Notes under the pieces: model-generated | The model's input: the letters and a program-made list of their open reading frames with translations, nothing else | Told to the model about the DNA's origin: nothing | The model's database searches: none | Source of the DNA: a virus | DNA length: 64,000 nucleotides | Direction: 5' to 3' (one strand) | IMG/VR virus record: IMGVR_UViG_3300043788_000049 | Span: 23,272-87,271 of that record | Part shown: positions 218-63,975 of the stretch, piece after piece | Layout of the letters: each line of letters begins with the position of its first letter | How positions within the stretch are numbered: the first letter of the stretch is position 1 | Made by a program: the position numbers and the translations under genes

Positions 218-808
218 TCAGTTGGCGCTCTCGACATAGAGCGTCATCGTGGTCGAAACGCCGGTGGCGCCGGAGCCAGAGATCGCCTCAAGCGTCCAGT
301 AGATGAGCGCGGGGGTCCCGGACTGCAGGCGCAGAGAGACGACCGTCCCTGCTCCGGTCAGCGGCGAGCAGCGGGCGTAAGCCCCGTCGCCGCCCTGGAT
401 CATCGTGCAGGAGAAAGAGCCGAGATAGCCGGCGGAGCCGGTAGCGATGAGATAGGCCGCGCGATCGCCATTGGTCATGGTCGGCGCGGCGGCCCATAGA
501 TCGACCTGGATCGTCTTTGCGGGCCACGCGGTCGAAGTCGGATCGCTTGAAATCAGCCGAACGCCGGTCAGGATTGTCGGTAGACCTCCCGGCGATCCTG
601 GAGGCACGAAGGACGGGATGACGCCATTCGCGGGGGAAATCCATTGAGCGGCGGAATAGGCCGTAGTCTGGGTGGTAAGGGTGAAGCTGCTGCTCGGGTC
701 CGCATCGTTGATGGCGAAGGCGGGAGAGCCGAAGAGAAGCGCGGCCACTAAGGCCAGCCCAGAAAGGTAGGCCGCTAAGGCCAGCCCAGAGAAGATAGAG
801 CGCAGCAT
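218..808 (-). CDS. Hypothetical protein with N-terminal signal-like segment, Thr/Ser/Gly-rich (possibly virion-associated)
   Basis: ORF 218..826, likely start at MLRSIF; hydrophobic N-terminus ending PAFA. Confidence 0.6.
   Translation of the reverse strand: MLRSIFSGLALAAYLSGLALVAALLFGSPAFAINDADPSSSFTLTTQTTAYSAAQWISPANGVIPSFVPPGSPGGLPTILTGVRLISSDPTSTAWPAKTIQVDLWAAAPTMTNGDRAAYLIATGSAGYLGSFSCTMIQGGDGAYARCSPLTGAGTVVSLRLQSGTPALIYWTLEAISGSGATGVSTTMTLYVESAN
743..790. repeat. 27-nt-period tandem duplication (ggcc[a/g]ctaaggccagcccaga x2) encoding SGLALxA twice
   Basis: Copies at 743-763 and 770-790. Confidence 0.85.
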
Positions 809-858
809 CGTGGTGGTCCCTGCCAAGGCGGCCTTCGGAATAGCACGGCGCGAGCCTG

Positions 859-1245
859 TTAGGGAAGGATCAGCGGCGGCCCCTTGACCGTGGCGTCATC
901 GGGTGGGACGAGCCCGGTCTTTTGCTGAAATTCAAGATATTCGCCGGAATTGCAGGGCGTGAAGACGACGCGCGCGCGGTCCCAATCTGGCCTACCGCCC
1001 GAGGCGTCGGCGGTTTCACGGATTTGCGTCTTGACGGCTCTGGTCAGTAAATCATCGATCCGGACGTCCTGAGTGTGCCTACGACACAGATGGCAATCGT
1101 GCATGCTGACGATGGGCTTGCGGATTTTCTCGTGCCAGCCAACGAAGGGGACCAGAGCGCAAGGGGCATACGCGCCGTTTTCATCGCATCCATGCGAGTC
1201 ACAGCGAAACCCGAAGAGAGTGGTCCCTTCAACTCGACGTGCCAT
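859..1245 (-). CDS. Hypothetical Cys/His (zinc-binding-like) protein
   Basis: CDSHGC...CHLCRRH; start MARRVEG abuts the upstream stop. Confidence 0.55.
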   Translation of the reverse strand: MARRVEGTTLFGFRCDSHGCDENGAYAPCALVPFVGWHEKIRKPIVSMHDCHLCRRHTQDVRIDDLLTRAVKTQIRETADASGGRPDWDRARVVFTPCNSGEYLEFQQKTGLVPPDDATVKGPPLILP

Positions 1246-1871
1246 CAGCGGAGCGCCCACTGAACGATCGTGGCGATGAGGGCCACAAAAGCGGACGCGA
1301 CTATCGCTACTAAGCTCCAATCAAGCCGAAGCGGCTTGGAGGAGAATGAAACTTGTGATGGCTGCGTCCTTGTCAGGGACTGCCACACCAGATGCTCATT
1401 GAGCTTCTCGTTCTTGTCCTCGATCGCGCCGAGAACATCCATGGCATGGAATAAAGCTCCGGCGCTATCGACGTAATAAATGCCATGGGGCGGCCCATAG
1501 CCGTGGACGGTCAGCACATTTCCGCCCCAATGGATATTGTAGGCCATCAAAAGGCCATGAGCCGCCTGAGTCGGCGCATAATCCTTGAGCGTCTCGCAAT
1601 ATTCTCTGACCTTTGCGGCATGGTCGGGATTGGCAAAGACCGAATCAGCCGGACAATCGAGCTGGGGCGGAACTTCGGGGATGATGGTGGGGGCGGGGGC
1701 AGGCTGGCTATAGACGCCGGCCTGTTGATAGGTGCCGCCGCCATACGGCTGGGTTGCGAGAACTTGCCCCATCCCCGACAGCCCATTGCCGCCGCCGCCA
1801 TATTGGCTTAGGGCGTGCTGGTAGGCTTGGGTGGCGGCGTTCATCTGCGCGAGCATCGCTGGGTGCATCAT
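1245..1871 (-). CDS. Hypothetical protein, Gln/Gly/Tyr-rich N-terminus and C-terminal TM helix
   Basis: 208-aa ORF coupled to neighbours by stop/start overlap. Confidence 0.6.
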   Translation of the reverse strand: MMHPAMLAQMNAATQAYQHALSQYGGGGNGLSGMGQVLATQPYGGGTYQQAGVYSQPAPAPTIIPEVPPQLDCPADSVFANPDHAAKVREYCETLKDYAPTQAAHGLLMAYNIHWGGNVLTVHGYGPPHGIYYVDSAGALFHAMDVLGAIEDKNEKLNEHLVWQSLTRTQPSQVSFSSKPLRLDWSLVAIVASAFVALIATIVQWALR

Positions 1872-2197
1872 CCACCCGCCACGAAATCGAGCAGCTCGCG
1901 AGCGATTCGGATGAGGTCTGCAGGCGGGGAGCCAGTGGGTAGCGACGAAGCCGCCATTTTCAGGACCTCCATTCTGATTTCCGGGGTGGCGGCGCTTTTG
2001 CCGCCGGATAGCCCCGTTGTCTCTGCGGGACGGTCCTTCATGGACTGCGCTTTCATGAGCGCCTGACGGGTTTCCGGGTCGATCCCAGCGGGGAGGGCTG
2101 GCGGTGCGCCTTCGTCCTCGGCAGGGGCGTTCGGGTCGATCACCTGCTTGGGGTTCGGATTGGTCCCGTCAAAGACATGGACGCGCTCTAAGGGCAC
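1868..2197 (-). CDS. Hypothetical protein
   Basis: ORF 1868..2287, likely GTG start at VPLERVH after GGAG. Confidence 0.5.
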   Translation of the reverse strand: MPLERVHVFDGTNPNPKQVIDPNAPAEDEGAPPALPAGIDPETRQALMKAQSMKDRPAETTGLSGGKSAATPEIRMEVLKMAASSLPTGSPPADLIRIARELLDFVAGG

Positions 2198-2213
2198 ATG
2201 CTTCTCCTTCTTC

Positions 2214-2753
2214 TCAGTCTTCCGAGCTTCGAGGGTTGCGGCCCATTGGCGGGCGCGGCGCAGCCGGCGGCTTTCGGACGCCGCCACTTATCGAACCCTC
2301 GGCGACGCGCTTGGCGTAGGCCAGAATATGCTCGGCCAGCGCTTTCTGGACCTGAACGGGATCGTCATTGCTCAGAACAAGATTGCCCTTGATGTTCGAG
2401 CCCTCAATGTCGGGCGACCGGATGATAAGGGTTATCAGCTTCGAGTGGAACAGCTTCGCGATCTGGGCCAAATCCGCTTGGAGGGCGTGGCCGAGGGCTT
2501 CGGGGAGGTCCTTGGTGATCGGGGCGGCGAGGATGGCGGAGGCGATTTCCTCGTATATGAAATTGGCTTTATGGTCGGGACAATGAGCCCGCGCTATCTC
2601 CGCTGCCCGCTCGAAGGCGAGACGACGTTCAGAGCGGAGAACGCTCGTTGCCCTATCTTGACATTTACATTGAACGTCGGGGGCGCAGAGTAAGGCACAC
2701 CATTTTCGAGCCTCACTTTGTAATTCCCGCGCCCTCTCTTCCATCTCGCTCAT
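2214..2753 (-). CDS. Hypothetical protein
   Basis: Start MSEMEERA with AAGGGG RBS. Confidence 0.55.
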   Translation of the reverse strand: MSEMEERARELQSEARKWCALLCAPDVQCKCQDRATSVLRSERRLAFERAAEIARAHCPDHKANFIYEEIASAILAAPITKDLPEALGHALQADLAQIAKLFHSKLITLIIRSPDIEGSNIKGNLVLSNDDPVQVQKALAEHILAYAKRVAEGSISGGVRKPPAAPRPPMGRNPRSSED

Positions 2754-2956
2754 CTCATCCCCCTTTGGAGCTAGTGAAGAAACTATTCTACACGAACCAA
2801 GTACAGGTCCATGCAATATGATCAATCCGGCTTGACTTAATGCTTCGTCGAGGGTCATGGTATGTTCCCTATCCACCAGCCTTGTATATAATCCAAAGTT
2901 GCTGAGCAGTTACAGCAACTATTAAGCCAGTGATGAACCCGAGTAAAAACAACATC

Positions 2957-3343
2957 TCATTTCCCTTTGGAGTCGGTCAGCGCGGCGCGGGCGAGCAGCA
3001 CCATGCTGCCAGTGCGGAGATTAGGATTTGAAGCGATGTTCTCCAGCGCCTCCCGCAATCGCGCGAGTTCGGATTCGGCTTCCTCTCGCCGTCGGCTTGC
3101 GCTAGCCGCCCATATTCGCCAATGCAGCACATCATCCTCGAAAGGATGCGCGGTTAGGTTCAACCCCGCGACTGTATCTTGCGCCTCCTGCAGCGCGGCG
3201 ATGAGACGGCGGATACTTTTGGCATTGCGAACAATCCACGCGCCGAGATTTTCATAATCGGCTTCGCTGCTAAACTTCGCCGTCTGGTCTATGCGACTAA
3301 GCAATTCCCCAATCAGCGCTTCAATCTCGCTCGGATCGCTCAT
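2957..3343 (-). CDS. Hypothetical coiled-coil phage protein
   Basis: GGAG RBS; ELARLREALENIA...ARAAL motif typical of phage accessory proteins. Confidence 0.65.
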   Translation of the reverse strand: MSDPSEIEALIGELLSRIDQTAKFSSEADYENLGAWIVRNAKSIRRLIAALQEAQDTVAGLNLTAHPFEDDVLHWRIWAASASRRREEAESELARLREALENIASNPNLRTGSMVLLARAALTDSKGK

Positions 3344-3352
3344 TCGGTTCTC

Positions 3353-3562
3353 CTACGATGGGGAGGAAGGAGTGTTTGCTATTTTCTTCTTCGCCTCTTC
3401 AAGGCAATGAATGGCGACTTGGATGAGGTAGGCATTCCGCACATCTGTTGGGTTCTCCCACCACAGCTTTAGATTGCCCTCGGCTTCCCTGACGTTTTTC
3501 TGGGCAGTGTCGCCCAGAGGAAGAACAAATAATCCCATCTCCCTCTCCCTTTCTCTGCTCAA
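3353..3562 (-). CDS. Hypothetical protein
   Basis: Fits the tightly packed minus-strand array. Confidence 0.45.
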   Translation of the reverse strand: MSREREREMGLFVLPLGDTAQKNVREAEGNLKLWWENPTDVRNAYLIQVAIHCLEEAKKKIANTPSSPS

Positions 3563-3780
3563 TCAGGTGAACGCGGAACGAAGGGAGTAGTCATGCCATC
3601 GGCACTGGGGGATGTTGGGAAAAGTGGCGCACTTCCGTCTCTGATGTGTTTTATGAAGCGCTGTTGGACCTCATTGGTGGCAGTATCCCAATCCCATTCG
3701 ATGCCGGTCCAAGCACGAGATGTTTCCTCGTAAAGAGCCTTGGCGGCTTTAACGATCGTCGTTGCTGAAATAGCGCTCAT
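3559..3780 (-). CDS. Hypothetical protein
   Basis: GTAGGAGAACCG RBS, near-identical to the one before 3343. Confidence 0.55.
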   Translation of the reverse strand: MSAISATTIVKAAKALYEETSRAWTGIEWDWDTATNEVQQRFIKHIRDGSAPLFPTSPSADGMTTPFVPRSPD

Positions 3781-54590: not shown

Positions 54591-54997
54591 AGCCTGAAGA
54601 TCGTCTTACCTGATTCCCAGCCGATATGAACGTCACCCGCCTGTGGCGAAAAGGGAAATTTGCCGCTACCGAGGGTGTCAATATGGGCGATCAGCCGGCT
54701 CGTGGCTCGGGAGCCGGTATCCTGGTAGACGACGATGAAATCGACGGAGGCCGCATCGACCGCCTCGATGACGACGCTATTGGCGCAGGCGACGCCGTTC
54801 TCCCCCGTCTTGCCCGTCAACACGACGCTCTTGGACACCACCGCCGCGCCGAGGTCGGCCAGAAAGCGATCCTTCTGGATATTGGCCTTGCGCTGCTTGC
54901 CATCGCAGAGGACCGCGCAGATTTTGTCCTCCAGCCACTTAATCTGGCCGCAGAGGAAGGCTTCACGCCCTTTCTCAAAGAGACTGTTCGCCATCAT
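54587..54997 (-). CDS. Minor tail protein-like
   Basis: ANSLFEKGREAFL.G.I.W..D; LTGKT..GV..A; LIA.ID; P.GDV.I.W. Confidence 0.65.
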   Translation of the reverse strand: MMANSLFEKGREAFLCGQIKWLEDKICAVLCDGKQRKANIQKDRFLADLGAAVVSKSVVLTGKTGENGVACANSVVIEAVDAASVDFIVVYQDTGSRATSRLIAHIDTLGSGKFPFSPQAGDVHIGWESGKTIFRL

Positions 54998-57900
54998 TCG
55001 ATCCTTGCGCCAGTGATCATGCCGGTTTCGTCGCGTGAGAAAGAGACCTTCGTCTTGTTCTCGGCTCCGACCGTCGCCCCGGTGATGAAGCCATTCTCAT
55101 CGCGAGAGAAGGAGACGCTCTTGGCCCCGCCCTCCATGCACTTGACTGCGGCCTTATAGGCTTTCTCAAGCTGGTCCGCCATTTCTTGGGTCATGACGTG
55201 AGGCGGTTCGGGGACGCCAGCCTCTTTCGCGGTGCGCGCGGCGGCGGCGATTTCCTCATCGGTCGCCAGCAAGCGGTCGTAGACGCCGCGCATTTCTTCG
55301 GAGATCGGACGCCCAAGGCGCAAGAGGCCACGGTAAATCTTGCGCAGCCAGTCCTTGAACATCTCGAAGACGCGGGCGAGGCCTTCCGATGGAGCTTTCC
55401 CTGAGGCCAGATAGTCCTCGAAGCCATCAGAGAACTTTTCGCGGTGTTCTGGCGTGAGGCTCTCGCGGTCTTTGGCTCCCACAAAGGCTAGCGCCGTGGC
55501 GGCGTCTGCCTTGATCTGGGGTGAAGCGTCCGGCGCGGAGGCATCCTCCAGCAGCTCGTCGAACCAAAGATGCGAACCCTCGTGCATGACTGTCGAGGCG
55601 TCCGCCGTCTCGAACAGCTTGATGATCCGCTGGTTGCCCTGGAAGGTGATGGCCCCGCGCTGCGCGCCGCCGGGTAGCGCCGGCCCTTGAGCCAATTCCT
55701 TCTCAGTCTCCGGCTCGATCGTCGCCGCGGGGTTCGGCGCCTTCATCGAATCGGATAGCGCTTTGATCTTCTGAAGCGTCTGCTGGTATTCGGCCTCCTT
55801 CGGCCATTTGCCGGCGGCCAGCTTTTCGAGCTTCTCGAGGTCCTTGCGCCGATCGGCCAGCGCCGTCTCGGTCGCCTTGGCCCTGCTGGCGATATTGCCC
55901 AGGAGGTTCTCAAAACGCCGGATCAGGCCGCCGGGGTCCGTCTCCTTATTAAGTATGGTCTGGGTCGGCGAGCCATAGGGGTCCGTGCCCTTGAGCATCG
56001 GCGTGCCCTTTAGATAGAGCCCGTCGCTGTCGTATTGGGTCTGGACCTGCATCTGCATTTCAAAGCCGGACAACTCGCCCAGGTTGATGATTTTGGGCGT
56101 GTAATAGCGGCTGGCGTCCAGAGCCAGCACGGTCTTGAGGATGGCTTCGCCAGCCGCCTTGCGCTCGGTGATCACCTTGCCGCCGACCGTGATCTTGAAC
56201 TTGTCGCCGGCAAGGTCCTGCACGCGATCGCCGTCGGCCTTCTCGGTCGGCAGGCGCTCCTCGTAGGTGGCGATGGCCGCGCGACTGGCGTTGATCTGCC
56301 AGGAGGCGCGATCGACGTTCTGCTTATGCGCGCGCCGCTGGGCGGAGAGTTGCCGAGCCTGCCGATCGAGTTCCGCCAATTCCATGATGCGAGTATCGCC
56401 GGAGGCCGCCGCCTTCATTTCCGCCGCCTCGGGGAGCGGGTTGTCGATGTCCTCGGCGTGGCGCGAGCCCTTGGCGCCCGACAAGACTTGGCTGATGAAC
56501 TTCGACTTCGTGTCGAGCTTTTGCCACATGAAGGCGTCGAACGAGCGCTTGGTCACGTAGCGGAAGATTTGCACCTGCTTGTTGAGGTTGCCTTGGCGGA
56601 CAATGCGCCCGTCGCGCTGTTCGACCTCCGCCGGCTTCCATGGCGCATCCAGATGGTGCATCGCGATCAGGCGATCCTGAACGTTAGTGCCGACGCCCAT
56701 CTTTCCCGACGAGCCGATAAGGACACGAATATCGCCAGCGCGGACCTTCTTGAATAAGCGCCCCTTGGCAGCATCGTCCTTGGCGTCGTGGATCGCCGCG
56801 ATCTGCTCCGCAGGAATGCCCTTATCGACCAAGCGCTGTTTGATGTCGGCATAGAGGTCAATCTTGGGTTGTTCGATCTGCGCCGGGTCGCCCATCTCAT
56901 CCTCGATAGGCTTCTTTGCCGCCACTTTGGTCTGCGGCACGCCCATGTCGAGGAAGACCATCTGGACAGTGCCCGGCTCTTTGCCCTTCTTCCAAATCTC
57001 GTGAATATTTTTAACAGCGAGCGCGATCTTGCCTTTGGGGTTGAAATCGAAATTAGGATCGATAAGGCGACCGTCCGTCGCAACCTTGCGTCCGGCCGTC
57101 ACGACCGAGAGCATGTTCGGTTGGCCCTTCTCAGGCCGCTTGCCTTTCAGACTCTCCGCCAATTCCACGAGCTTCTGAATGTGCAGTTCTTCCTCTTCCG
57201 AAGGGGTCGCTTGGACAATCTCAATCCCTGGTCCGCCCGCTTTGGTCCGAACCTCGGGCCGCGGCAGTTTGAGCATGTCCGCCGTCTTGGTGTCGGCGAT
57301 CTCGGAATAGAGGCTGATGAGTTCTGGAACGTTGACGAATTTCGAGAAGGACGAGACTTCCTTGAAGGTCCGGCCGTCCGCTGAAAGCTCCATGTTGTTG
57401 ACGACCTTGCCGAAGGTCGAGGCCCAGGCATCGAAGTTCTCCAGCCCCGCTTCCTTCAGACGGTCGAGTTCGAGATAGCGCATCATCGTCCAGAGTTCGG
57501 CCATCGTGTTGGAGACGGGAGTGCCGGTCGCGAACACCGCTGATCGGCCGGGGCGCTTTTGTTCGAGGTAGCGGATTTTGAGGAACAGGTCCTCAGCCCG
57601 CTGGCTGTCGCCCTGGGCGAGACCCTTAACATTCCCTAACCTACTGGAAAAATACAGATTTTTGAAAAAATGCGATTCGTCGATTACCAAATGATCGATC
57701 CCGGTCTCTTCAAATGAAACGCCAGTGTCCTTGCGTTCCTCGTTCAGGAGCTTTTGCAGCTTGTCCTCCAGTTTCTTCTTGGCCTTTTCGAGCGCCTTGA
57801 CCGTCGGCGAGCGCTTGTCATCGGTGTCGGCAATCTCCGCCTTGCGCGCCCGCTCCAATTCGTCGAGTTGCTCCTGGATGAAATTCTGCCGATGCTCCAA

Positions 57901-60900
57901 GCTTGTGTTGATACGCCCGAAGGCGGAATGGGTCATAATGACGCCATCCCAATCGTTCGCTGCGACCTTGGCGATAAACGCCTTCCGGTGCTCTCTAGTC
58001 ATTTCCTCCTTCTGAGCAACCAGAATTTTGGCGTTTGGATAGGCTTCGATGAACTCTCGGGCGAATTGCTCCAGCATATGGTCGGGGATAGCAAAAGCGC
58101 CTTTATTGATGAGCCCTAAGCGCTTCTGTTCCATCACAGCGGCAATGCTCGTGACGGTTTTTCCACTTCCAACACTGTGCGCCAGAAGCGTATTTCCACT
58201 CTGGACAATGCGCCAAACTGCATCCTTCCGATGCTTACGATCGGCGAATTTGGGATTGAGGCCGGGGAAGGTCTGGTGGGCGCCGTCGAATTGCCGCGGG
58301 ACGAGGTTGTTGTAGGTCCGATTGTAGATGGCCTCCAGGCGCTGCGCGCGCTCCGGATCGGCGAAGGCCCAGGCGTCGATGCCGCGCTCCGGGTCGCCGG
58401 TGAAGGCTTCCTTGAGCGCCTCGACGCGCACGCGCGCCGCCTCGGTTGCGCCTTGGTCGACCTCATAGACATCAGGATTGCTGCTGACGTGGTTCCGGAC
58501 GGTGATCTGGCGGTTGTTGATCGCAGCGTCGATCACATCGTCCACGCTCACCCGGTCGGTCCCGTAGGTGGTGTGGGCAGAGGATGAATACTGGCCGTGC
58601 TTGACCTTCCAGCCGCCGGTGACGGGAATGGTCGAAATCCGGGTGTTGTAGCCGCCGATCTCCTTGATGAACGCCTCGTAGACGTCCGCCGGGATCCATG
58701 GGGCCCCGAACTGCGCCATGATGTCCGTGCCGGTCAACGGGGTCGGCTGAACCTTCTCCAAGGCCGCGACATTGCGTGAGTAGGCCGGGTCGCCATCGGC
58801 AATGACGCGGGCCTCTTCGAGCTTCTTGACCACATCGCCGGAGAGATAGCGGTCCGCCGGCTCCCATTGCCGCCCGTTCGGGTTCTGGAAGATCAGATCG
58901 CCTAGCGCTTTCGCGGCGGCTTCCTCGCTCCCGACATTGAGCATCTGGCCGATCTGTTGCAGATCGACGCGGCCGGTGGCGTCGAGCGTCGCCGCGAGCG
59001 CATCGGCGGGGCCATTGATCTGGCGCTCCTTCGGCGGGGCGATGATGTCCTTCTTCTGAATGTCGGCGGGCTTGGCCGTGCCCGTCTCGGCGTCATATTG
59101 CTCGATCGCCGCGACCTTCCAGGAATCGGGGTCATCCTTGAATGGCGCGAAGTTTGGCGTCTTGGTGATCGTGACCGGCTCGCCCGCGCGCGTGAGGCGC
59201 TTGGTGGTCTTTGTTTCTTCCTTGTTGATCGGGCCATGCGCCTTGACGAACTGGTCATAGGCTTCGCGGAGTTGCTTGCGGAGAGCATCGGCCTTGTCGC
59301 CACCCGAGAGTTGCTCCTTGAGCAAGTCGTTGACGATATCGCGAATGCCGGAGAGCTTCTTGACCCTGCTTTCGTCATCCCCGGATAGCCTCTGCTCGAC
59401 GCCGCGGCCCTGCTCGCGCCGATAGACCTTGCCGCCCTTCGAGAAGTAGGCCCCTTCCTTGGAGGCTCCCGGCTCAATATCGCGCTGGTCGATGACGGGC
59501 GGCCGCGGCGAGCCTCTGGGGACGAAGGCTCCTTCCCGCATGGTCGCGCCAGCGCCGTGGATTGCCATTCCAAGGTCCTGCGGGTCGCCTATTAGCACCG
59601 GCTCATTCTTGGCATACATCGAGCCCATCAACCGCATCTCGCCCAGCATCATCTTCGGATGGTCGGCAAAATACTCGTTGATCTTGACCGGCCCCTCGGG
59701 AGTCGAAATCTCCTTGAGATTGGTCCAGTTCTCGCCCGGATAGTCCGGCTCGCCGGGGACCTTCTTGCGCAGAAAGATAATGTCGGTCGTGACCTCGGTG
59801 CCGGCATTCCCCGCGAATGCGCCCTTGTCTCCGCCGGGCAGGCGAATAGCGCCAACGAAATCCGCCGTCTTGGAAAGCTCGCGGCGTGTTCCCGCGTCCA
59901 CGCGATCCATCGTGTAGCGCGACGTGATGAACGAAACGACGCCGCCGGGGCGAACCTTATCGAGCGACTTGACGAAGAAGAAATCATGGATCGGATAGGA
60001 GCCGTAGGGCTTTTCGGTCAGATTGAAATTGCCGAACGGCACGTTCGAGATTGCGAGGTCGAAGTAATTGCTGGGCCGCTTCAGCGTCTCGAAGCCCTGG
60101 ACGTTAATGTCAGCATCCCCGTAGAGCGCCTTGGCGATCCGGCCGGTCAGCGAGTCCAGCTCCGTCGCGGTCCAGGCGGTGCGGCTCGCGAGGCTGTCGG
60201 GGATCAGGCCGATGAAGTGCCCAACGCCCGCGGCCGGTTCGAGCGCGAGGCCGCCGTTGAACCCCAAATGCTGGAGAGCGCCCCAGATGCCGCGGATGAC
60301 GTCGGGAGACGTGTAATGGGCATTGAGGGTCGAGGCGCGCGCGGCGGCGTATTCCTCATCGGTGACGAGCGCTCGGAGGGCGTCGCGCTGCTGCTTGAAC
60401 TCGGGCCCACGGTCGGAGAACATCTTTTGGGCGAACGCGCCCCAGCCGGTGTATTTGACGAGGGTCGCCTTTTCCTCCGGCGTCGCCTCGCGCGCCTCGT
60501 CCTCGATCAGCTTGAGAACCCGGATGGCGTCGATGTTGGCGTTGATCTTCGTCTTGGGGCCACCGACGCCGACTTGGTCATCGGGAGTGATGCGATAGTT
60601 CGAGCGGGTGCGCTCCGCGATCTTCTCCTCGGCCTCGGCTAGTCCTGCGCCTCGGGGGTCGGTTGATGGATCTGGTCGTGCCTCACCTGCTCCTGGACCT
60701 CCGCTTGGCGGCTTTGTAACTCCCTCACTCGGTCCAGGTAGGGCAGCTTCTGCACCTCCGGCTTGTTGTGGTGCTCCGCCATCAGGTGCTCGTCCATCTC
60801 CGACGCCGAGTTCCCCACCCCCTCCAGATAGCTCTGGAGGTTTCCGGATGCGCTTAGGTCTTTGAGGACGTGCGGCATTGCCTCCTTCAGGTATTGGTGG

Positions 60901-63900
60901 TGCTCCTGGCCGTATCTCTCCGCCGTCGGGTTGTTGAACATTGGCTTCCTCGCCAGTCGGGATGGGTGCGGGCTCGGTTATCCCCGGTCCCCACTCAGGG
61001 TCCTTGTTCCAGGCGTTGTCGTAAAGCTGCCGTCCCAACGCCATCACGTCCTTGTAGTGAGCGAGATTGGCGGGGTCTGACAGATCGAGGCGCTTGACCG
61101 GCTGTCGGATCGCATGGGCCTTTCTCATCACCTCGGCGATCGGCTTCGGGACGATCTGCAATTCCGCTGACGTGCCGTCCCCCAGACCGACTTGCAGGTG
61201 ATAAGCCCGGTAGCCCTCCTTGCTCGTCTCCATGGAGCTTTCAGCTTCCAGGACGCCGCCGGTGCGGTCGAGCTTGGCTAGGATTTCATCCATCGCGGCG
61301 CGAGTGTCGACGACGATGCGCGCGCCGAGGTAATCGGAGATTGTCGAGGCCGGGCGCCCCTTGACCTTGATCTTCTGCTCTAGGCCGGACTTGTCCTTGA
61401 CGCGGCTGTTGTAGACATGGGCGCCGTCGATGCCCGCGACCAATTGGCGCAACCCCTCGTCCAGCCGGGGTTTATTCTCTTCCGCAGCGGCATGGAGGGC
61501 TTGCCAATCGTTGCTCCCCTGAATAATTAATTTATTGGTGGAAGGGTCAATGTCTCCCAACCGGAAATCCGAAAATCGAGTGATCGCCGGCCCCTCGAAG
61601 ATTGATGGCGGCATTTCGCGGGTGATTGAACTGCCCAACGGCTCGGGCAGGGTCGAAACTTGGAAGCCCGGCGTCGGCTGGGTCGAGGGCGGCGCTTCGC
61701 CGGATGAATTTATCGGGGCGATGCCGGTATCCAAGGCATTGGCCGCGAGAGCCGGCATTCCCTCATCCGAACTCTGAGCCAGCCGGATTTCGACATTCTG
61801 CTTCGAATAGAGGTCCCAGGCGTCGCCCGCGCCGGTGCGCGCCGCGCGCGCGTTATAGCGGGCCGCCCAGACCGTCGCCGCTGCGTCTGCCACCGCTGGG
61901 TCCGTGCCCCCCGCGATCAGCTTCCGCCGCACGTCCTCGTAAACCATCTGGGAAGGCCCAGGAGGGGCAACGGGCGGCGCGGTGGCTAGATCAGCCTCCA
62001 ATGCCTTCGCCTGCTCCTGGCGGCCTTGCGGCGTGTCCAGATCGGGTGTTTCCGGCTCGGCGTCGGTGCGATCGAGGTCCGTGAGGTTGAAACCGTCCCT
62101 GGCGATCAGTTTCGCCACTTCATCGAGAAAGACGCGCGCGGCCTTACGGGGCTCCATCCCATCCACCACGCTCGACGCCGCGCGGTTCAAGGCCGCCGAA
62201 ATCGGCCCCGATCGGGTGGCAAGTTTCTGGAGCAATTGCCCAAGCTGCGCGGCTTGCTCGGCGCGGTCGGCATTGGTGTCGACAAGAACATTCCCCTGGC
62301 CCTCGATCCGCTCCGCCTCGCGCGCCAGAGTGGCGAAGATGCGCTTGTCCTCGCTGATGAGCGACATCGCGGCGCCGTAGACCTGCGCGCGCTCCTGGTA
62401 GAGCGAGCGGGTCACTTCCTCCTTGCCGAATAGCGTCTCCTGGACTTCCCTGGCGAAGCCGGCCGAATTGGCGTCGGCAATCATCATCCGGGCTTCGTTC
62501 TCGTTTTGCGGCTTGAACTTCGCCAATTCCCCCATGACCGCCGCATGGTTCTCCTTGCCCGGCATCATATTGCCGACCAGGGCCGCGTGGTTCTGCGGCA
62601 CAACGCCGTTGAGCGTCATTTCCCAAGCGGGGTCCGAAAGTTCGGAGAGGCCCTTGGCCTGCCGCAGTTTGCCCGACGTGATCGGCAGGCTGTCGTCCCA
62701 CATATCCGGGCGGTCGCGGAAGACGCGCGCAGTGTCGAGCGCATCGCCAGAGCCTTCCTGGATATTCTTCTTCGCCGAGATTGCGCGGGCATCGGCTGGC
62801 GTCCAGCCGTCCTTCTCACGCAAAAGAGCGCCGGTCATGCGGATCGATGATGTCAAGTTTTCCGCCCTCAGATGCGTCTCTTCCGGGCGCTTTGTTTGAG
62901 CGGCATTCTGGGCGATTTCCTGGGCTTCTCTCCTACCGACATAGCGGCCTTTGGAGGTAATGAAGCCGTCCAAGCCGATGGCGTCGATGTCCTTTATGTC
63001 GATCCCGGCGGCCATCGCCTTCGCATAGGCATCAGAGTGAAGAGGCCCTGTGAATACGCGACCATCCTTGGCCTTGATCGCCGATGAGACAATGCGCTCA
63101 GGACCTGTGGCCTCTTGTTCGGACAGAAGCCGCTTCGCCAGCCCAAGGCGCTGATGGCCATCAACAATGGTCCGCGTCCCATCGGCGCTTTCGTAAACGA
63201 CGACGTTCCCCGCCGCGAGCGGGTCCCAGCGCTGCACGCCCGAGAGCCGATCCGTCACGCCCTGCTGGTTGGCCCCGCCCTTATATTGGAACGCCTGGGC
63301 GTCGGTGCCGAGAGTGCGGGGATCGAAGCTCGTATAGGTGATCGGCTTCCCCTCGACCATTTCGGTGTGGCCGGCGGCGCGCTCGGGAAAGCCCTGGTGA
63401 TCCGGGATGACGGCGATCGGCCCGGCCGGCGGCGCGTGCATCGGCGGCTGCGGCGGCGCGACAATGTCCGGGTTCTCAGCGTGCCGGACCATTCCCTCGT
63501 AGGAGCGGAGGTTTTCTTCCGCCGGCACGCCGGGGACTGCCGGCGGCGAGGCAAGGTGATCGTTCTCGGCCCGATCGACGAGGCCGTGGTTGGCGGAGGT
63601 CTGCGGGGCTTCGCGATCGGCGGCGGCGGGCGGGACGAAGGGCTTCGGCGGTCCAGGCAACGCCTTGGGAGGGCCGGTGGGCGCGGTTGGCGGCGCGGGC
63701 TCCTCGACCTTCGGGGGCTTTCCCGTCGCCGCGGCGCGCGCGGCCTCACGGGTCGAACCGACCGGCAGCCCGTTATCTTTCTCCCAATCCGCGACGCTAT
63801 CCCAGAATTGCTTGGCTCCCGGCGATGTGTCCTCGCCTCCATTCTGGGCCATGCGGATGAAGTGGTTGATCCCAGCCTGACCGAGAAGGCGCCCAACTTC

Positions 63901-63975
63901 CGAGATGCCCTGCATGAACCCAGACGGGACCGCGCCGTAGAGTGCGGCCGTCCCCACATCGCGAAGCGCCGGCAT
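54994..63975 (-). CDS. DarB-like large polyvalent protein: ParB-like, RelA/SpoT, N6-adenine MTase, SNF2 helicase, zincin-like domains (frame open to the window edge, so possibly longer)
   Basis: IVDGHQR; SRVK..DYLGARI..GYRAYH..ELQI; NAHYTS, LEPAAGVG, NVPFG; AHSVGSGKT, DESH, ATGTPVSN, EQRDGRIVRQGN; HEGSH. Confidence 0.9.
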   Translation of the reverse strand: MPALRDVGTAALYGAVPSGFMQGISEVGRLLGQAGINHFIRMAQNGGEDTSPGAKQFWDSVADWEKDNGLPVGSTREAARAAATGKPPKVEEPAPPTAPTGPPKALPGPPKPFVPPAAADREAPQTSANHGLVDRAENDHLASPPAVPGVPAEENLRSYEGMVRHAENPDIVAPPQPPMHAPPAGPIAVIPDHQGFPERAAGHTEMVEGKPITYTSFDPRTLGTDAQAFQYKGGANQQGVTDRLSGVQRWDPLAAGNVVVYESADGTRTIVDGHQRLGLAKRLLSEQEATGPERIVSSAIKAKDGRVFTGPLHSDAYAKAMAAGIDIKDIDAIGLDGFITSKGRYVGRREAQEIAQNAAQTKRPEETHLRAENLTSSIRMTGALLREKDGWTPADARAISAKKNIQEGSGDALDTARVFRDRPDMWDDSLPITSGKLRQAKGLSELSDPAWEMTLNGVVPQNHAALVGNMMPGKENHAAVMGELAKFKPQNENEARMMIADANSAGFAREVQETLFGKEEVTRSLYQERAQVYGAAMSLISEDKRIFATLAREAERIEGQGNVLVDTNADRAEQAAQLGQLLQKLATRSGPISAALNRAASSVVDGMEPRKAARVFLDEVAKLIARDGFNLTDLDRTDAEPETPDLDTPQGRQEQAKALEADLATAPPVAPPGPSQMVYEDVRRKLIAGGTDPAVADAAATVWAARYNARAARTGAGDAWDLYSKQNVEIRLAQSSDEGMPALAANALDTGIAPINSSGEAPPSTQPTPGFQVSTLPEPLGSSITREMPPSIFEGPAITRFSDFRLGDIDPSTNKLIIQGSNDWQALHAAAEENKPRLDEGLRQLVAGIDGAHVYNSRVKDKSGLEQKIKVKGRPASTISDYLGARIVVDTRAAMDEILAKLDRTGGVLEAESSMETSKEGYRAYHLQVGLGDGTSAELQIVPKPIAEVMRKAHAIRQPVKRLDLSDPANLAHYKDVMALGRQLYDNAWNKDPEWGPGITEPAPIPTGEEANVQQPDGGEIRPGAPPIPEGGNAARPQRPKRIRKPPELSGGGGELGVGDGRAPDGGAPQQAGGAEAALPGPSEGVTKPPSGGPGAGEARPDPSTDPRGAGLAEAEEKIAERTRSNYRITPDDQVGVGGPKTKINANIDAIRVLKLIEDEAREATPEEKATLVKYTGWGAFAQKMFSDRGPEFKQQRDALRALVTDEEYAAARASTLNAHYTSPDVIRGIWGALQHLGFNGGLALEPAAGVGHFIGLIPDSLASRTAWTATELDSLTGRIAKALYGDADINVQGFETLKRPSNYFDLAISNVPFGNFNLTEKPYGSYPIHDFFFVKSLDKVRPGGVVSFITSRYTMDRVDAGTRRELSKTADFVGAIRLPGGDKGAFAGNAGTEVTTDIIFLRKKVPGEPDYPGENWTNLKEISTPEGPVKINEYFADHPKMMLGEMRLMGSMYAKNEPVLIGDPQDLGMAIHGAGATMREGAFVPRGSPRPPVIDQRDIEPGASKEGAYFSKGGKVYRREQGRGVEQRLSGDDESRVKKLSGIRDIVNDLLKEQLSGGDKADALRKQLREAYDQFVKAHGPINKEETKTTKRLTRAGEPVTITKTPNFAPFKDDPDSWKVAAIEQYDAETGTAKPADIQKKDIIAPPKERQINGPADALAATLDATGRVDLQQIGQMLNVGSEEAAAKALGDLIFQNPNGRQWEPADRYLSGDVVKKLEEARVIADGDPAYSRNVAALEKVQPTPLTGTDIMAQFGAPWIPADVYEAFIKEIGGYNTRISTIPVTGGWKVKHGQYSSSAHTTYGTDRVSVDDVIDAAINNRQITVRNHVSSNPDVYEVDQGATEAARVRVEALKEAFTGDPERGIDAWAFADPERAQRLEAIYNRTYNNLVPRQFDGAHQTFPGLNPKFADRKHRKDAVWRIVQSGNTLLAHSVGSGKTVTSIAAVMEQKRLGLINKGAFAIPDHMLEQFAREFIEAYPNAKILVAQKEEMTREHRKAFIAKVAANDWDGVIMTHSAFGRINTSLEHRQNFIQEQLDELERARKAEIADTDDKRSPTVKALEKAKKKLEDKLQKLLNEERKDTGVSFEETGIDHLVIDESHFFKNLYFSSRLGNVKGLAQGDSQRAEDLFLKIRYLEQKRPGRSAVFATGTPVSNTMAELWTMMRYLELDRLKEAGLENFDAWASTFGKVVNNMELSADGRTFKEVSSFSKFVNVPELISLYSEIADTKTADMLKLPRPEVRTKAGGPGIEIVQATPSEEEELHIQKLVELAESLKGKRPEKGQPNMLSVVTAGRKVATDGRLIDPNFDFNPKGKIALAVKNIHEIWKKGKEPGTVQMVFLDMGVPQTKVAAKKPIEDEMGDPAQIEQPKIDLYADIKQRLVDKGIPAEQIAAIHDAKDDAAKGRLFKKVRAGDIRVLIGSSGKMGVGTNVQDRLIAMHHLDAPWKPAEVEQRDGRIVRQGNLNKQVQIFRYVTKRSFDAFMWQKLDTKSKFISQVLSGAKGSRHAEDIDNPLPEAAEMKAAASGDTRIMELAELDRQARQLSAQRRAHKQNVDRASWQINASRAAIATYEERLPTEKADGDRVQDLAGDKFKITVGGKVITERKAAGEAILKTVLALDASRYYTPKIINLGELSGFEMQMQVQTQYDSDGLYLKGTPMLKGTDPYGSPTQTILNKETDPGGLIRRFENLLGNIASRAKATETALADRRKDLEKLEKLAAGKWPKEAEYQQTLQKIKALSDSMKAPNPAATIEPETEKELAQGPALPGGAQRGAITFQGNQRIIKLFETADASTVMHEGSHLWFDELLEDASAPDASPQIKADAATALAFVGAKDRESLTPEHREKFSDGFEDYLASGKAPSEGLARVFEMFKDWLRKIYRGLLRLGRPISEEMRGVYDRLLATDEEIAAAARTAKEAGVPEPPHVMTQEMADQLEKAYKAAVKCMEGGAKSVSFSRDENGFITGATVGAENKTKVSFSRDETGMITGARIE
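60639..60941 (-). CDS. TnpV-like small protein overprinted within the giant ORF (other frame)
   Basis: RYGQEHHQYLKE..P..L..L..SG.L..YL..V...A.E; GAGGA RBS 5 nt before ATG. Confidence 0.65.
   Translation of the reverse strand: MFNNPTAERYGQEHHQYLKEAMPHVLKDLSASGNLQSYLEGVGNSASEMDEHLMAEHHNKPEVQKLPYLDRVRELQSRQAEVQEQVRHDQIHQPTPEAQD
61550..61777 (+). CDS. Antisense nested small protein next to the RelA/SpoT domain
   Basis: AT-rich stretch plus GGAAGG RBS; RVIELPNGSGRVETWKPGVGWVEGG reads as globular while the opposite frame is a S/P/T linker. Confidence 0.5.
   Translation: MSPNRKSENRVIAGPSKIDGGISRVIELPNGSGRVETWKPGVGWVEGGASPDEFIGAMPVSKALAARAGIPSSEL

What the first reader, a model, noticed from the sequence alone, without database searches (positions are those of the whole stretch)
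60639..61777. RelA/SpoT domain inside the giant protein is bracketed by two overprinted genes
Seen: a domain at about 61000-61510 has the four synthetase motifs (SRVK..K, DYLGAR, GYRAYH, ELQI). Both flanking linkers look disordered in the main frame but carry plausible ORFs with RBSs in other frames. Established: small alarmone synthetases can be toxins with adjacent antitoxin genes, and RelA/SpoT domains occur in phage polyvalent and MuF proteins. Inference: a virion-delivered nucleotide synthetase whose immunity or regulatory genes are hidden within its own coding sequence.
Basis: partly seen in the sequence, partly recalled or inferred. Interest (0 to 1): 0.78.

Follow-up and report, generated by a model that had tools for sequence, protein, structure and literature searches.

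The report
Two hidden genes inside giant phage gene
A 2,993-residue phage anti-restriction protein with an alarmone-synthetase-like domain carries a real small gene in a second reading frame, and probably another on the opposite strand, so one stretch of DNA makes a giant protein and its likely small partner proteins.

Summary
The giant minus-strand ORF (54994-63975) has a RelA/SpoT domain that just passes Pfam's cut-off and has the small-alarmone-synthetase fold.

ORF A (60639-60941, +1 frame) is a genuine TnpV-like gene:
- It matches Pfam PF14198 and folds at pLDDT 95.6.
- About 80 related phage and bacterial loci have the same nested ORF.
- Selection follows its frame, yet the giant frame stays open in 62 of 62 loci, against 8 expected.

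ORF A travels with the methylase-helicase module, not with RelA/SpoT. It is predicted to dock on giant residues 1519-1645.

I first took ORF B (antisense, 61535-61777, likely ATG 61550) for a shadow ORF. Three results changed that:
- Seven distinct loci keep it open.
- Wobble changes spare its amino acids in 11 of 14 cases, against 23 of 154 in controls.
- ATG and GGAGG are conserved.

ORF B lies opposite the leader that accompanies this RelA/SpoT domain wherever the domain sits. I put about 65% on it being a real gene and a candidate partner or immunity protein.

This scan has noted both kinds of nested gene before on other DNA. I found no published report, and RefSeq records for phages Bcep22, Gerry and VvAW1 do not annotate ORF A.

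The parts
54994..63975 (-). Giant polyvalent ORF of 2993 aa: ParB-like motif, RelA/SpoT domain, N6-adenine methylase, SNF2 helicase and an HExxH motif
   Evidence: PHROG DarB-like antirestriction match over residues 1094-2762 at 1636.8 bits.
61153..61407 (-). RelA/SpoT (small alarmone synthetase fold) core, residues 857-941
   Evidence: Pfam PF04607 at 27.7 bits against cut-off 27. Motifs located. AF2 model of residues 790-1010 has pLDDT 69.6. Foldseek E 5e-6 to 1e-5 to 6fgk, 5ded and 6ox6, and 2.5e-4 to CapRel 7ztb, with TM about 0.5.
60639..60941 (-). Nested ORF A: complete TnpV-like gene, 100 aa, in the +1 frame of the giant ORF, with TAG stop
   Evidence: Pfam TnpV E 2.2e-10, 40.9 bits. 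92 homologues, nearly all 80-170 aa. AF2 pLDDT 95.6. The same nested ORF is found in related loci. Frame-specific selection shown.
60945..60953 (-). Shine-Dalgarno-like GAGGAA ahead of the ORF A ATG
   Evidence: An SD core lies upstream of the nested ATG in 41 of 68 loci, against 14% of control ATGs.
60622..60963 (-). Gly/Pro-rich main-frame linker (residues 1005-1118) that reads the ORF A DNA in the giant frame
   Evidence: The main frame is open across the nested gene in 62 of 62 loci, against 8.2 expected from codon re-sampling; for the window P = 0.0175.
59041..59421 (-). Giant residues 1519-1645, the predicted docking surface for the ORF A protein
   Evidence: complex prediction. The segment holds many invariant columns of alignment A3.
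61535..61777 (+). Nested ORF B: antisense ORF of 80 aa from TTG. The more likely start is ATG 61550 (75 aa), with GGAAGGG at 61540-61546
   Evidence: Open in 7 of 7 distinct loci. Wobble test. Conserved ATG and GGAGG. Six called homologues.
61534..61779 (-). Sense 'leader' (residues 733-814) that always precedes this RelA/SpoT domain and lies opposite ORF B
   Evidence: Present in P0001 and P0004-P0009 at residue positions 253 to 3740. Alignments.

Best explanation
The gene encodes a DarB-like polyvalent protein, probably packaged in the virion, that includes a RelA/SpoT-type nucleotide pyrophosphokinase domain. Two stretches of it are read twice.

(1) ORF A. The Gly/Pro-rich linker just before the methylase is also a complete TnpV-like gene in the +1 frame. 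It is most likely translated from its own SD and ATG by internal initiation. The small four-helix protein most likely acts as a bound partner of the methylase-helicase module encoded just downstream. TnpV is the older gene; the giant frame overprints it and is kept free of stop codons by codon choice. Shown: homology, conservation, dual-frame selection and the start signals. Inferred: translation, binding and role.

(2) ORF B. The conserved leader in front of the RelA/SpoT domain is probably also read on the opposite strand as a gene of about 75 aa. This gene moves with the synthetase domain as one cassette. I propose it is the domain's partner, either an immunity protein or a regulator. Shown: an open frame, wobble-site constraint and start signals in seven loci, and co-travel with the domain. 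Inferred: expression and function.

My separate odds: ORF A is a real gene, about 0.95; ORF A is tied to the methylase module rather than to RelA/SpoT, about 0.9; ORF B is a real gene, about 0.65; ORF B is an immunity protein or regulator of the synthetase, about 0.3.
For: ORF A homology and fold:
- Pfam TnpV at 40.9 bits.
- 92 homologues, nearly all short.
- pLDDT 95.6, pTM 0.83.
- An HMM built without the window's own ORF finds the ORF in the +1 frame, wholly inside giant ORFs, in 10 of 13 viral loci.

ORF A distribution:
- 80 of 88 anchored loci have a +1 ORF ending -66 to +30 nt from the methylase motif.
- 42 of 80 such ORFs hit Pfam TnpV individually.
- It is also present but unannotated in phages Bcep22, Gerry, Itty13 and VvAW1.

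ORF A selection:
- BLOSUM62 per column is 1.48 in the nested frame, 0.88 in the main frame and 0.67 in the third frame.
- For pairs with at least 80% identity in the methylase region, codon-position identity is .847/.910/.740 in the nested frame, against .893/.935/.672 for the ordinary downstream frame. The giant's wobble position is therefore the best-kept base in the overlap.
- The main frame is open in 62 of 62 loci against 8.2 expected; the third frame is open in 0 of 62.

ORF A start and main-frame start:
- ATG lies 16-26 codons before the invariant Pro in 62 of 68 loci, and an SD core is present in 41 of 68 against 14% of controls.
- A main-frame QLxLF motif lies upstream of the nested ATG in 33 of 35 stand-alone loci, so the main ORF really starts upstream.

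ORF A binding:
- Complex prediction gave a median score of 0.71, with the best of 3 controls at 0.00.
- That mark was reached by 58 of 80 solved complexes and by 2 of 110 mismatched pairs. These counts hold only roughly, because my own alignments were used.
- The runs agree in at least 64% of contacts, and the partner's pLDDT is at least 77.
- No solved relative of either chain was found by sequence.

ORF B:
- The antisense frame is open for 84-108 codons in 7 of 7 distinct loci.
- At sites where a sense-synonymous change would alter the antisense residue, the residue changed in 3 of 14 varied sites in the ORF B span, against 131 of 154 in three control regions (Fisher p 1.2e-6).
- The spared sites cluster at offsets -30 to +34 from residue 786.
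- ATG (GTG in L107) lies 17-18 codons before the IDG motif.
- GGAG or GAGG lies upstream in 5 of 7 loci, against 4.3% of control ATGs.
- Six homologues have been called as genes.
- The leader opposite ORF B accompanies the RelA/SpoT domain at seven different positions in seven giants.
Against: ORF A:
- No direct evidence of translation.
- Its function is unknown.
- The docking segment is not clearly weaker in the TnpV-less relatives among the Verrucomicrobiota MAGs.
- Classic TnpV genes occur without any methylase, as in Tn4451-type elements (PMC3158075) and in L094.

ORF B:
- It lies in the antisense frame whose wobble positions coincide with those of the sense frame. That frame is prone to shadow ORFs.
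- Openness is expected from the sense protein alone in 50-76% of re-codings for most loci.
- It has no Pfam family.
- Language-model recognition is low, 1723.
- No promoter-like site was found on its strand.
- ATG and SD could partly be shadows of the conserved sense residues D-I and A/T-S.
- Only seven related sequences and 14 informative sites support it.

RelA/SpoT domain:
- The Pfam score is only just above the cut-off.
- The fourth motif reads ELQIVP where I recall EIQIRT as the canonical form (my own knowledge), so activity and product are open.
Confidence: 0.6

Rival explanations
1. ORF B is only a shadow ORF. The sense leader of the RelA/SpoT domain is the sole coding frame, and the antisense frame stays open because that leader has no tyrosine codons and the genome is GC-rich.
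For: It lies in the wobble-coincident antisense frame. P(open) given the sense protein is 0.70 for the window and 0.5-0.76 for most loci. There are 20 antisense ORFs of 80 aa or more inside the giant gene. No Pfam or PHROG family matches. Atlas recognition is low. No promoter-like site lies on its strand. Sense and antisense identities are alike, 0.545 against 0.551.
Against: Wobble variation is limited to changes that keep the antisense residue in 11 of 14 sites, against 23 of 154 in controls, and the effect is confined to the ORF span. ATG and GGAGG are conserved. The frame is open even in L109, where the expected probability is 0.03.
Confidence: 0.3
2. ORF A is not made as a free protein. 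It is joined to the giant protein by programmed ribosomal frameshifting, either a +1 shift into it from upstream or a -1 shift out of it into the methylase frame.
For: It is on the same strand and one base out of frame, and its stop lies only 3-66 nt before the methylase motif. Frameshift fusions are common in phage and IS genes (my own knowledge).
Against: A canonical -1 slippery heptamer lies in the last 40 codons in only 5 of 82 loci. In most loci, stops in the +1 frame lie within about 25 codons upstream of the nested ATG, often within 10. The ATG keeps a fixed distance from the invariant Pro, and SD cores are enriched fourfold. Homologues are called as free proteins of about 100 aa. A -1 fusion would not require the main frame to stay open across all of ORF A, yet it is open in 62 of 62 loci.
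Confidence: 0.07
3. Both nested ORFs are immunity or regulatory genes of the RelA/SpoT domain. On this view ORF A is an antitoxin of the synthetase.
For: Both ORFs flank the domain in this window and in L012.
Against: ORF A is nested before the methylase in about 80 loci that lack this RelA/SpoT domain within the fetched DNA. In P0006 and P0008 the domain lies some 1,900-2,100 residues after the methylase N-terminal motif, hence far from the linker that ORF A overlaps in related loci. ORF A is predicted to dock on residues 1519-1645 of the methylase-helicase part.
Confidence: 0.03
4. ORF A is a dead remnant of a tnpV gene that was swallowed when two genes fused, and it is no longer functional.
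For: TnpV exists as a free-standing gene in low-GC elements (L094; PMC3158075).
Against: The ORF is intact with a start codon in 62 of 68 loci across several phyla. Codon-position conservation follows its frame. The fold is very confident.
Confidence: 0.02

Closest known systems
Polyvalent proteins of phages and conjugative elements (Iyer et al. 2017, PMC5512222); DarB of phage P1; Bcep22 gp75
   Same: A giant multi-domain protein with methylase and SNF2 helicase. RelA/SpoT domains are already reported in such proteins. PHROG DarB-like match at 1636.8 bits.
   Different: That paper does not contain the words TnpV, overlapping or frameshift. P1 DarB itself has no leader and no nested TnpV-like ORF.
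TnpV (Pfam PF14198), first named in Tn4451/Tn4453
   Same: ORF A matches the profile over positions 24-110 of 111, well above the cut-off. It is small and helical.
   Different: Classic TnpV is a free-standing gene of unknown function, postulated to be Xis-like (PMC3158075). Here it is embedded out of frame in another gene and coupled to a methylase-helicase.
Same-strand embedded genes: Rz1 inside Rz (lambda), comS inside srfAB (Bacillus subtilis)
   Same: A complete small gene in another frame of a larger gene, with both readings in use (my own knowledge of these cases).
   Different: Here the embedded gene is the ancient one and the host frame is the newcomer. The arrangement is kept across phyla, and the product is predicted to bind the host gene's own protein.
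toxSAS toxin-antitoxin modules and Tas1-Tis1 (PDB 6OX6)
   Same: The domain has the same synthetase fold as Tas1, RelQ and CapRel. A small co-travelling gene (ORF B) sits beside it.
   Different: ORF B has no sequence match to any solved protein, Tis1 included, or to any Pfam family. It is antisense and lies inside the toxin-bearing ORF. Neither toxicity nor neutralisation has been tested.

Membership tests
RelA/SpoT synthetase domain (PF04607; small alarmone synthetase fold) | Profile match at or above the curated score | tested here: met
   27.7 bits against cut-off 27, residues 857-941. This is marginal.
RelA/SpoT synthetase domain (PF04607; small alarmone synthetase fold) | Synthetase fold | tested here: met
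   Foldseek probability 1.00, E 5e-6 to 1e-5 to RelQ, RelP and Tas1, TM 0.45-0.55. The model's pLDDT is only 69.6.
RelA/SpoT synthetase domain (PF04607; small alarmone synthetase fold) | Catalytic motifs (DxxGxR, GYRxxH, ExQxRT) | tested here: inconclusive
   DYLGAR, GYRAYH and ELQ are present. The fourth motif reads ELQIVP, not my recalled EIQIRT. Activity and product cannot be read from sequence.
TnpV (PF14198) | Profile match above the curated score over most of the profile | tested here: met
   40.9 bits against 27, profile positions 24-110 of 111. 42 of 80 counterpart ORFs in relatives also match.
Out-of-frame embedded gene (Rz1-in-Rz kind) | Complete ORF inside another ORF, with selection on both readings | tested here: met
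   Nested-frame codon periodicity. Main frame open in 62 of 62 loci against 8.2 expected.
Out-of-frame embedded gene (Rz1-in-Rz kind) | Separate translation of the embedded gene | not testable with these tools
   Only start signals can be shown: ATG in 62 of 68 loci and an SD core in 41 of 68 against 14% of controls.
Programmed frameshift fusion | Conserved slippery site at the frame junction | tested here: not met
   5 of 82 loci have a canonical -1 heptamer.
toxSAS toxin-antitoxin / Tas1-Tis1 effector-immunity pair | Cognate small gene genetically linked to the synthetase domain | tested here: inconclusive
   ORF B's DNA accompanies the domain in seven giants and shows wobble-site constraint. 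Expression is unknown.
toxSAS toxin-antitoxin / Tas1-Tis1 effector-immunity pair | Partner resembles a known antitoxin or immunity family | tested here: inconclusive
   No Pfam hit and no PDB sequence hit.
toxSAS toxin-antitoxin / Tas1-Tis1 effector-immunity pair | Toxicity of the domain and its neutralisation by the partner | not testable with these tools
   Needs expression tests.
DarB-like antirestriction protein | Methylase plus helicase module homologous to DarB-type proteins | tested here: met
   phrog_10089, E 0, residues 1094-2762. tblastn hits 105 phage records, many annotated as DarB-like.

The most novel reading that the evidence does not exclude
Polyvalent giant proteins keep the genes of their domains' small partner proteins inside their own coding sequence, so a domain and its partner stay linked without breaking the polyprotein. 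A TnpV-like subunit of the methylase-helicase is written in the +1 frame of the linker. An immunity or regulatory protein of the RelA/SpoT toxin-like domain is written on the opposite strand of that domain's leader. Each pair moves as one cassette when domains are shuffled between giants.
Probability: 0.3. Interest if true: 0.85.

Novelty: new variant of a known kind. Interest (0 to 1): 0.75.

Why it matters
Standard annotation misses these genes. RefSeq shows only the giant CDS in Bcep22, Gerry and VvAW1. The case is also a well-controlled example of long-lived double coding in bacteria and phages.

If the small proteins are partners of the domains they overlap, two things follow. The anti-restriction methylase-helicase of many phages has an unrecognised subunit. 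And an injected alarmone-synthetase-like domain may carry its own antidote on the other strand. Both ideas can be tested in culturable phages.

The work also gives a general warning: conserved 'disordered linkers' in giant proteins may be shadows of hidden genes.

Tried and rejected
- The genome search draws no relatives for a virus record.

Searches that found nothing useful:
- Viral-contig scans with P0002, A2 and the single RelA domain; A1 and A5 were too diverse to seed a scan.
- tblastn of P0002 gave one phage record and no plasmid.
- Fold search of the ORF A model: Foldseek found nothing at E of 0.001 or better. The VIA wide search gave a best Z of 7.2 (2apl_A, rmsd 1.9 over 65 residues), below what helical bundles reach by chance. 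So there is no functional lead, and no family is excluded.
- PDB sequence searches of the RelA domain, the TnpV profile, the methylase part and the ORF B profile found nothing significant.
- NCBIfam and extra Pfam scans added nothing.
- Atlas search of ORF B: no usable hit.

Tests that were inconclusive or negative:
- Co-occurrence of ORF A with its predicted docking segment. TnpV-less relatives among the Verrucomicrobiota MAGs score like TnpV-bearing ones, while distant ones (P1, L100, L101) score low. The comparison is confounded by phylogeny.
- A Tis1-like antisense gene behind the RelA/SpoT domain, as noted elsewhere in this scan. The antisense ORFs at 60862-61097 translate to Cys/Arg/Trp-rich junk.

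A reading I gave up:
- My first reading of ORF B as pure chance was abandoned.

Full report
THE GENE AND THE DOMAIN

The finding lies in one minus-strand ORF, 54994..63975, of 2993 aa. PHROGs matches residues 1094-2762 to 'DarB-like antirestriction' at 1636.8 bits. Pfam finds SNF2 and helicase-C domains and, at residues 857-941, RelA_SpoT at 27.7 bits against a cut-off of 27.

A model of residues 790-1010 (pLDDT 69.6) matches RelQ, RelP, Tas1 and CapRel structures with Foldseek probability 1.0. The synthetase fold is therefore real. Activity and product are open, because the fourth motif reads ELQIVP.

RelA/SpoT domains in phage polyvalent proteins are already described (PMC5512222). Neighbouring genes include a virion structural protein and a tail-spike-like protein, so virion delivery is plausible but only inferred.

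ORF A (60639..60941, minus strand, +1 frame)

Its translation hits Pfam TnpV at E 2.2e-10 over nearly the whole profile. It has 92 homologues among 1.84 billion representatives, almost all 80-170 aa. With those as alignment it folds as a four-helix protein at pLDDT 95.6.

I then fetched relatives of the giant protein. There were 13 viral loci and 80 loci from bacterial genome bins labelled Verrucomicrobiota, Acidobacteriota, Alphaproteobacteria, Planctomycetota and others.
- An HMM built without the window's own ORF finds the gene in 10 of 13 viral loci. It is always in the +1 frame and wholly inside giant ORFs of 2,400-7,400 codons (several cut by the contig end).
- Taking the start of the methylase motif as anchor, 80 of 88 loci have a +1 ORF ending -66 to +30 nt from it.
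- 42 of 80 such ORFs match Pfam TnpV on their own.

Cultured phages Bcep22, Gerry, Itty13 and VvAW1 have the nested ORF too, and for the first, second and fourth the RefSeq records show only the giant CDS. P1 DarB lacks it. A low-GC gut phage carries TnpV as a free gene.

BOTH FRAMES OF ORF A ARE UNDER SELECTION

Amino-acid conservation is highest in the nested frame: BLOSUM62 per column is 1.48, against 0.88 in the main frame and 0.67 in the unused frame.

In pairs whose methylase is at least 80% identical, codon-position identity in the overlap is .847/.910/.740 in nested-frame terms. The ordinary downstream frame gives .893/.935/.672. The giant's own wobble base is therefore the best-kept base in the overlap.

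Yet the giant frame never breaks. I kept each TnpV protein and redrew its codons from the locus's own usage. That leaves the main frame open in 13% of trials (8.2 of 62 loci expected; 1.75% for the window), whereas it is open in 62 of 62. The third frame is open in none. These loci are related by descent, so the counts are not independent, but the sequences are highly diverged.

In 58 loci the methylase-helicase protein is not fused to upstream domains. Even there its N-terminal leader covers the nested gene. A main-frame QLxLF motif lies upstream of the nested ATG in 33 of 35 such loci, which shows that the main ORF starts upstream.

HOW ORF A IS MADE AND WHAT IT MAY DO

An ATG lies 16-26 codons before an invariant Pro in 62 of 68 non-identical loci. 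An SD core precedes it in 41 of 68, against 14% of control ATGs. Slippery heptamers are rare, 5 of 82. Internal initiation is thus the best reading.

ORF A is tied to the methylase module, not to RelA/SpoT. Among 93 loci, only the window and L012 have this synthetase domain in the fetched DNA, and in other giants the domain sits elsewhere.

A complex prediction of giant residues 1100-1900 with ORF A gave:
- a median score of 0.71, with the best of 3 controls at 0.00;
- a mark reached by 58 of 80 solved complexes and 2 of 110 mismatched pairs, counts that hold only roughly because my own alignments were used;
- runs agreeing in at least 64% of contacts, and a partner pLDDT of at least 77.

The contacts fall on residues 1519-1645, a segment rich in invariant columns. 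Neither chain has a solved relative by sequence. This supports binding but does not show it.

ORF B (61535..61777, plus strand, antisense)

At first this looked like chance:
- no family match;
- 20 antisense ORFs of 80 aa or more inside the giant gene;
- the antisense frame whose wobble positions coincide with the sense frame;
- openness expected in 70% of re-codings, because the sense stretch has no tyrosine.

Further data changed my view.

The sense stretch opposite ORF B (residues 733-814) is a conserved leader. It precedes this RelA/SpoT domain in all seven giants that have the domain, at residue positions from 253 to 3740. DNA for seven distinct loci keeps the antisense frame open for 84-108 codons.

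The telling test uses sites where a sense-synonymous change would alter the antisense residue. In the ORF B span the antisense residue changed at 3 of 14 varied sites. The controls gave 8 of 10 upstream, 36 of 39 in the RelA domain and 87 of 105 in the methylase region (Fisher p 1.2e-6). A core-only version gave 2 of 12 against 35 of 38. The spared sites cluster at offsets -30 to +34 from residue 786.

Start signals also hold. An ATG (GTG in L107) lies 17-18 codons before a conserved IDG motif. GGAG or GAGG lies upstream in 5 of 7 loci, against 4.3% of control ATGs. Six homologues have been called as genes, some on contigs over 50 kb.

Against ORF B:
- no Pfam or PDB relative;
- low language-model recognition;
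- no promoter-like site on its strand;
- few sequences, and start signals that may partly mirror conserved sense residues.

I put about 65% on a real gene. Its function is unknown. Co-travel with the synthetase domain makes an immunity or regulatory partner the natural guess.

COMPARISON AND VERDICT

The RelA/SpoT domain in a polyvalent protein is known. Embedded out-of-frame genes are a known kind (Rz1 in Rz, comS in srfAB). New here, as far as I could find, are three things:
- an ancient Pfam family kept inside the linker of DarB-like giants across phyla;
- a prediction that its product binds its host protein;
- a probable second, antisense gene that moves with the synthetase domain.

Earlier notes of this scan describe the TnpV nesting in at least 18 other genomes, and antisense genes beside RelA/SpoT domains in at least 6. 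My results agree with them. They add the codon-resampling control, the stand-alone methylase forms, the docking prediction and the wobble-site test for an ORF in front of the domain.

The claim that both serve the synthetase is not.

Noticed in passing
L019, L027, L039 and other loci, main frame just upstream of the nested ATG; absent from the window's linker: The methylase-helicase leader carries a QL[DSE][LF]F motif in 33 of 35 stand-alone loci. From my own knowledge this resembles the beta-sliding-clamp binding consensus. Giants L002, L006 and L010 have two copies. The window's protein has lost the motif.
   Followed up: partly
L097 (Pseudomonas phage Itty13, NC_070969.1 4442-8482): The RefSeq record annotates a hypothetical CDS on the strand opposite to the DarB-like ORF that matches the window. 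This is probably a shadow-ORF mis-call in 68% GC DNA.
   Followed up: no
L099 (phage P1, NC_005856.1 24542-27529): P1 ddrB has an annotated gene, iddB, nested on the opposite strand. This is a precedent for antisense nesting in the P1 Dar gene set.
   Followed up: no
L090:9469-10059: In this deltaproteobacterial bin the TnpV-like ORF lies in a different frame relative to the methylase anchor, and the main frame is open for only 120 nt upstream.
   Followed up: no
L102:1871-2272 (gut phage MT837606, GC 44%): The TnpV-like ORF straddles the junction of two ORFs and lies about 720 nt before the methylase motif. This looks like a partly overlapped form.
   Followed up: no
window 63145-63162 and 55570-55584: A ParB-like DGHQRL motif lies near the N-terminus and an HEGSH zincin-like motif near the C-terminus of the giant protein. 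Pfam did not call either at E of 0.01 or better.
   Followed up: no
window 60862-61097, plus strand: Two antisense ORFs (72 and 75 aa) lie behind the RelA/SpoT domain and translate to Cys/Arg/Trp-rich sequence. They give no sign of the Tis1-like antisense gene noted behind such domains elsewhere in this scan.
   Followed up: partly
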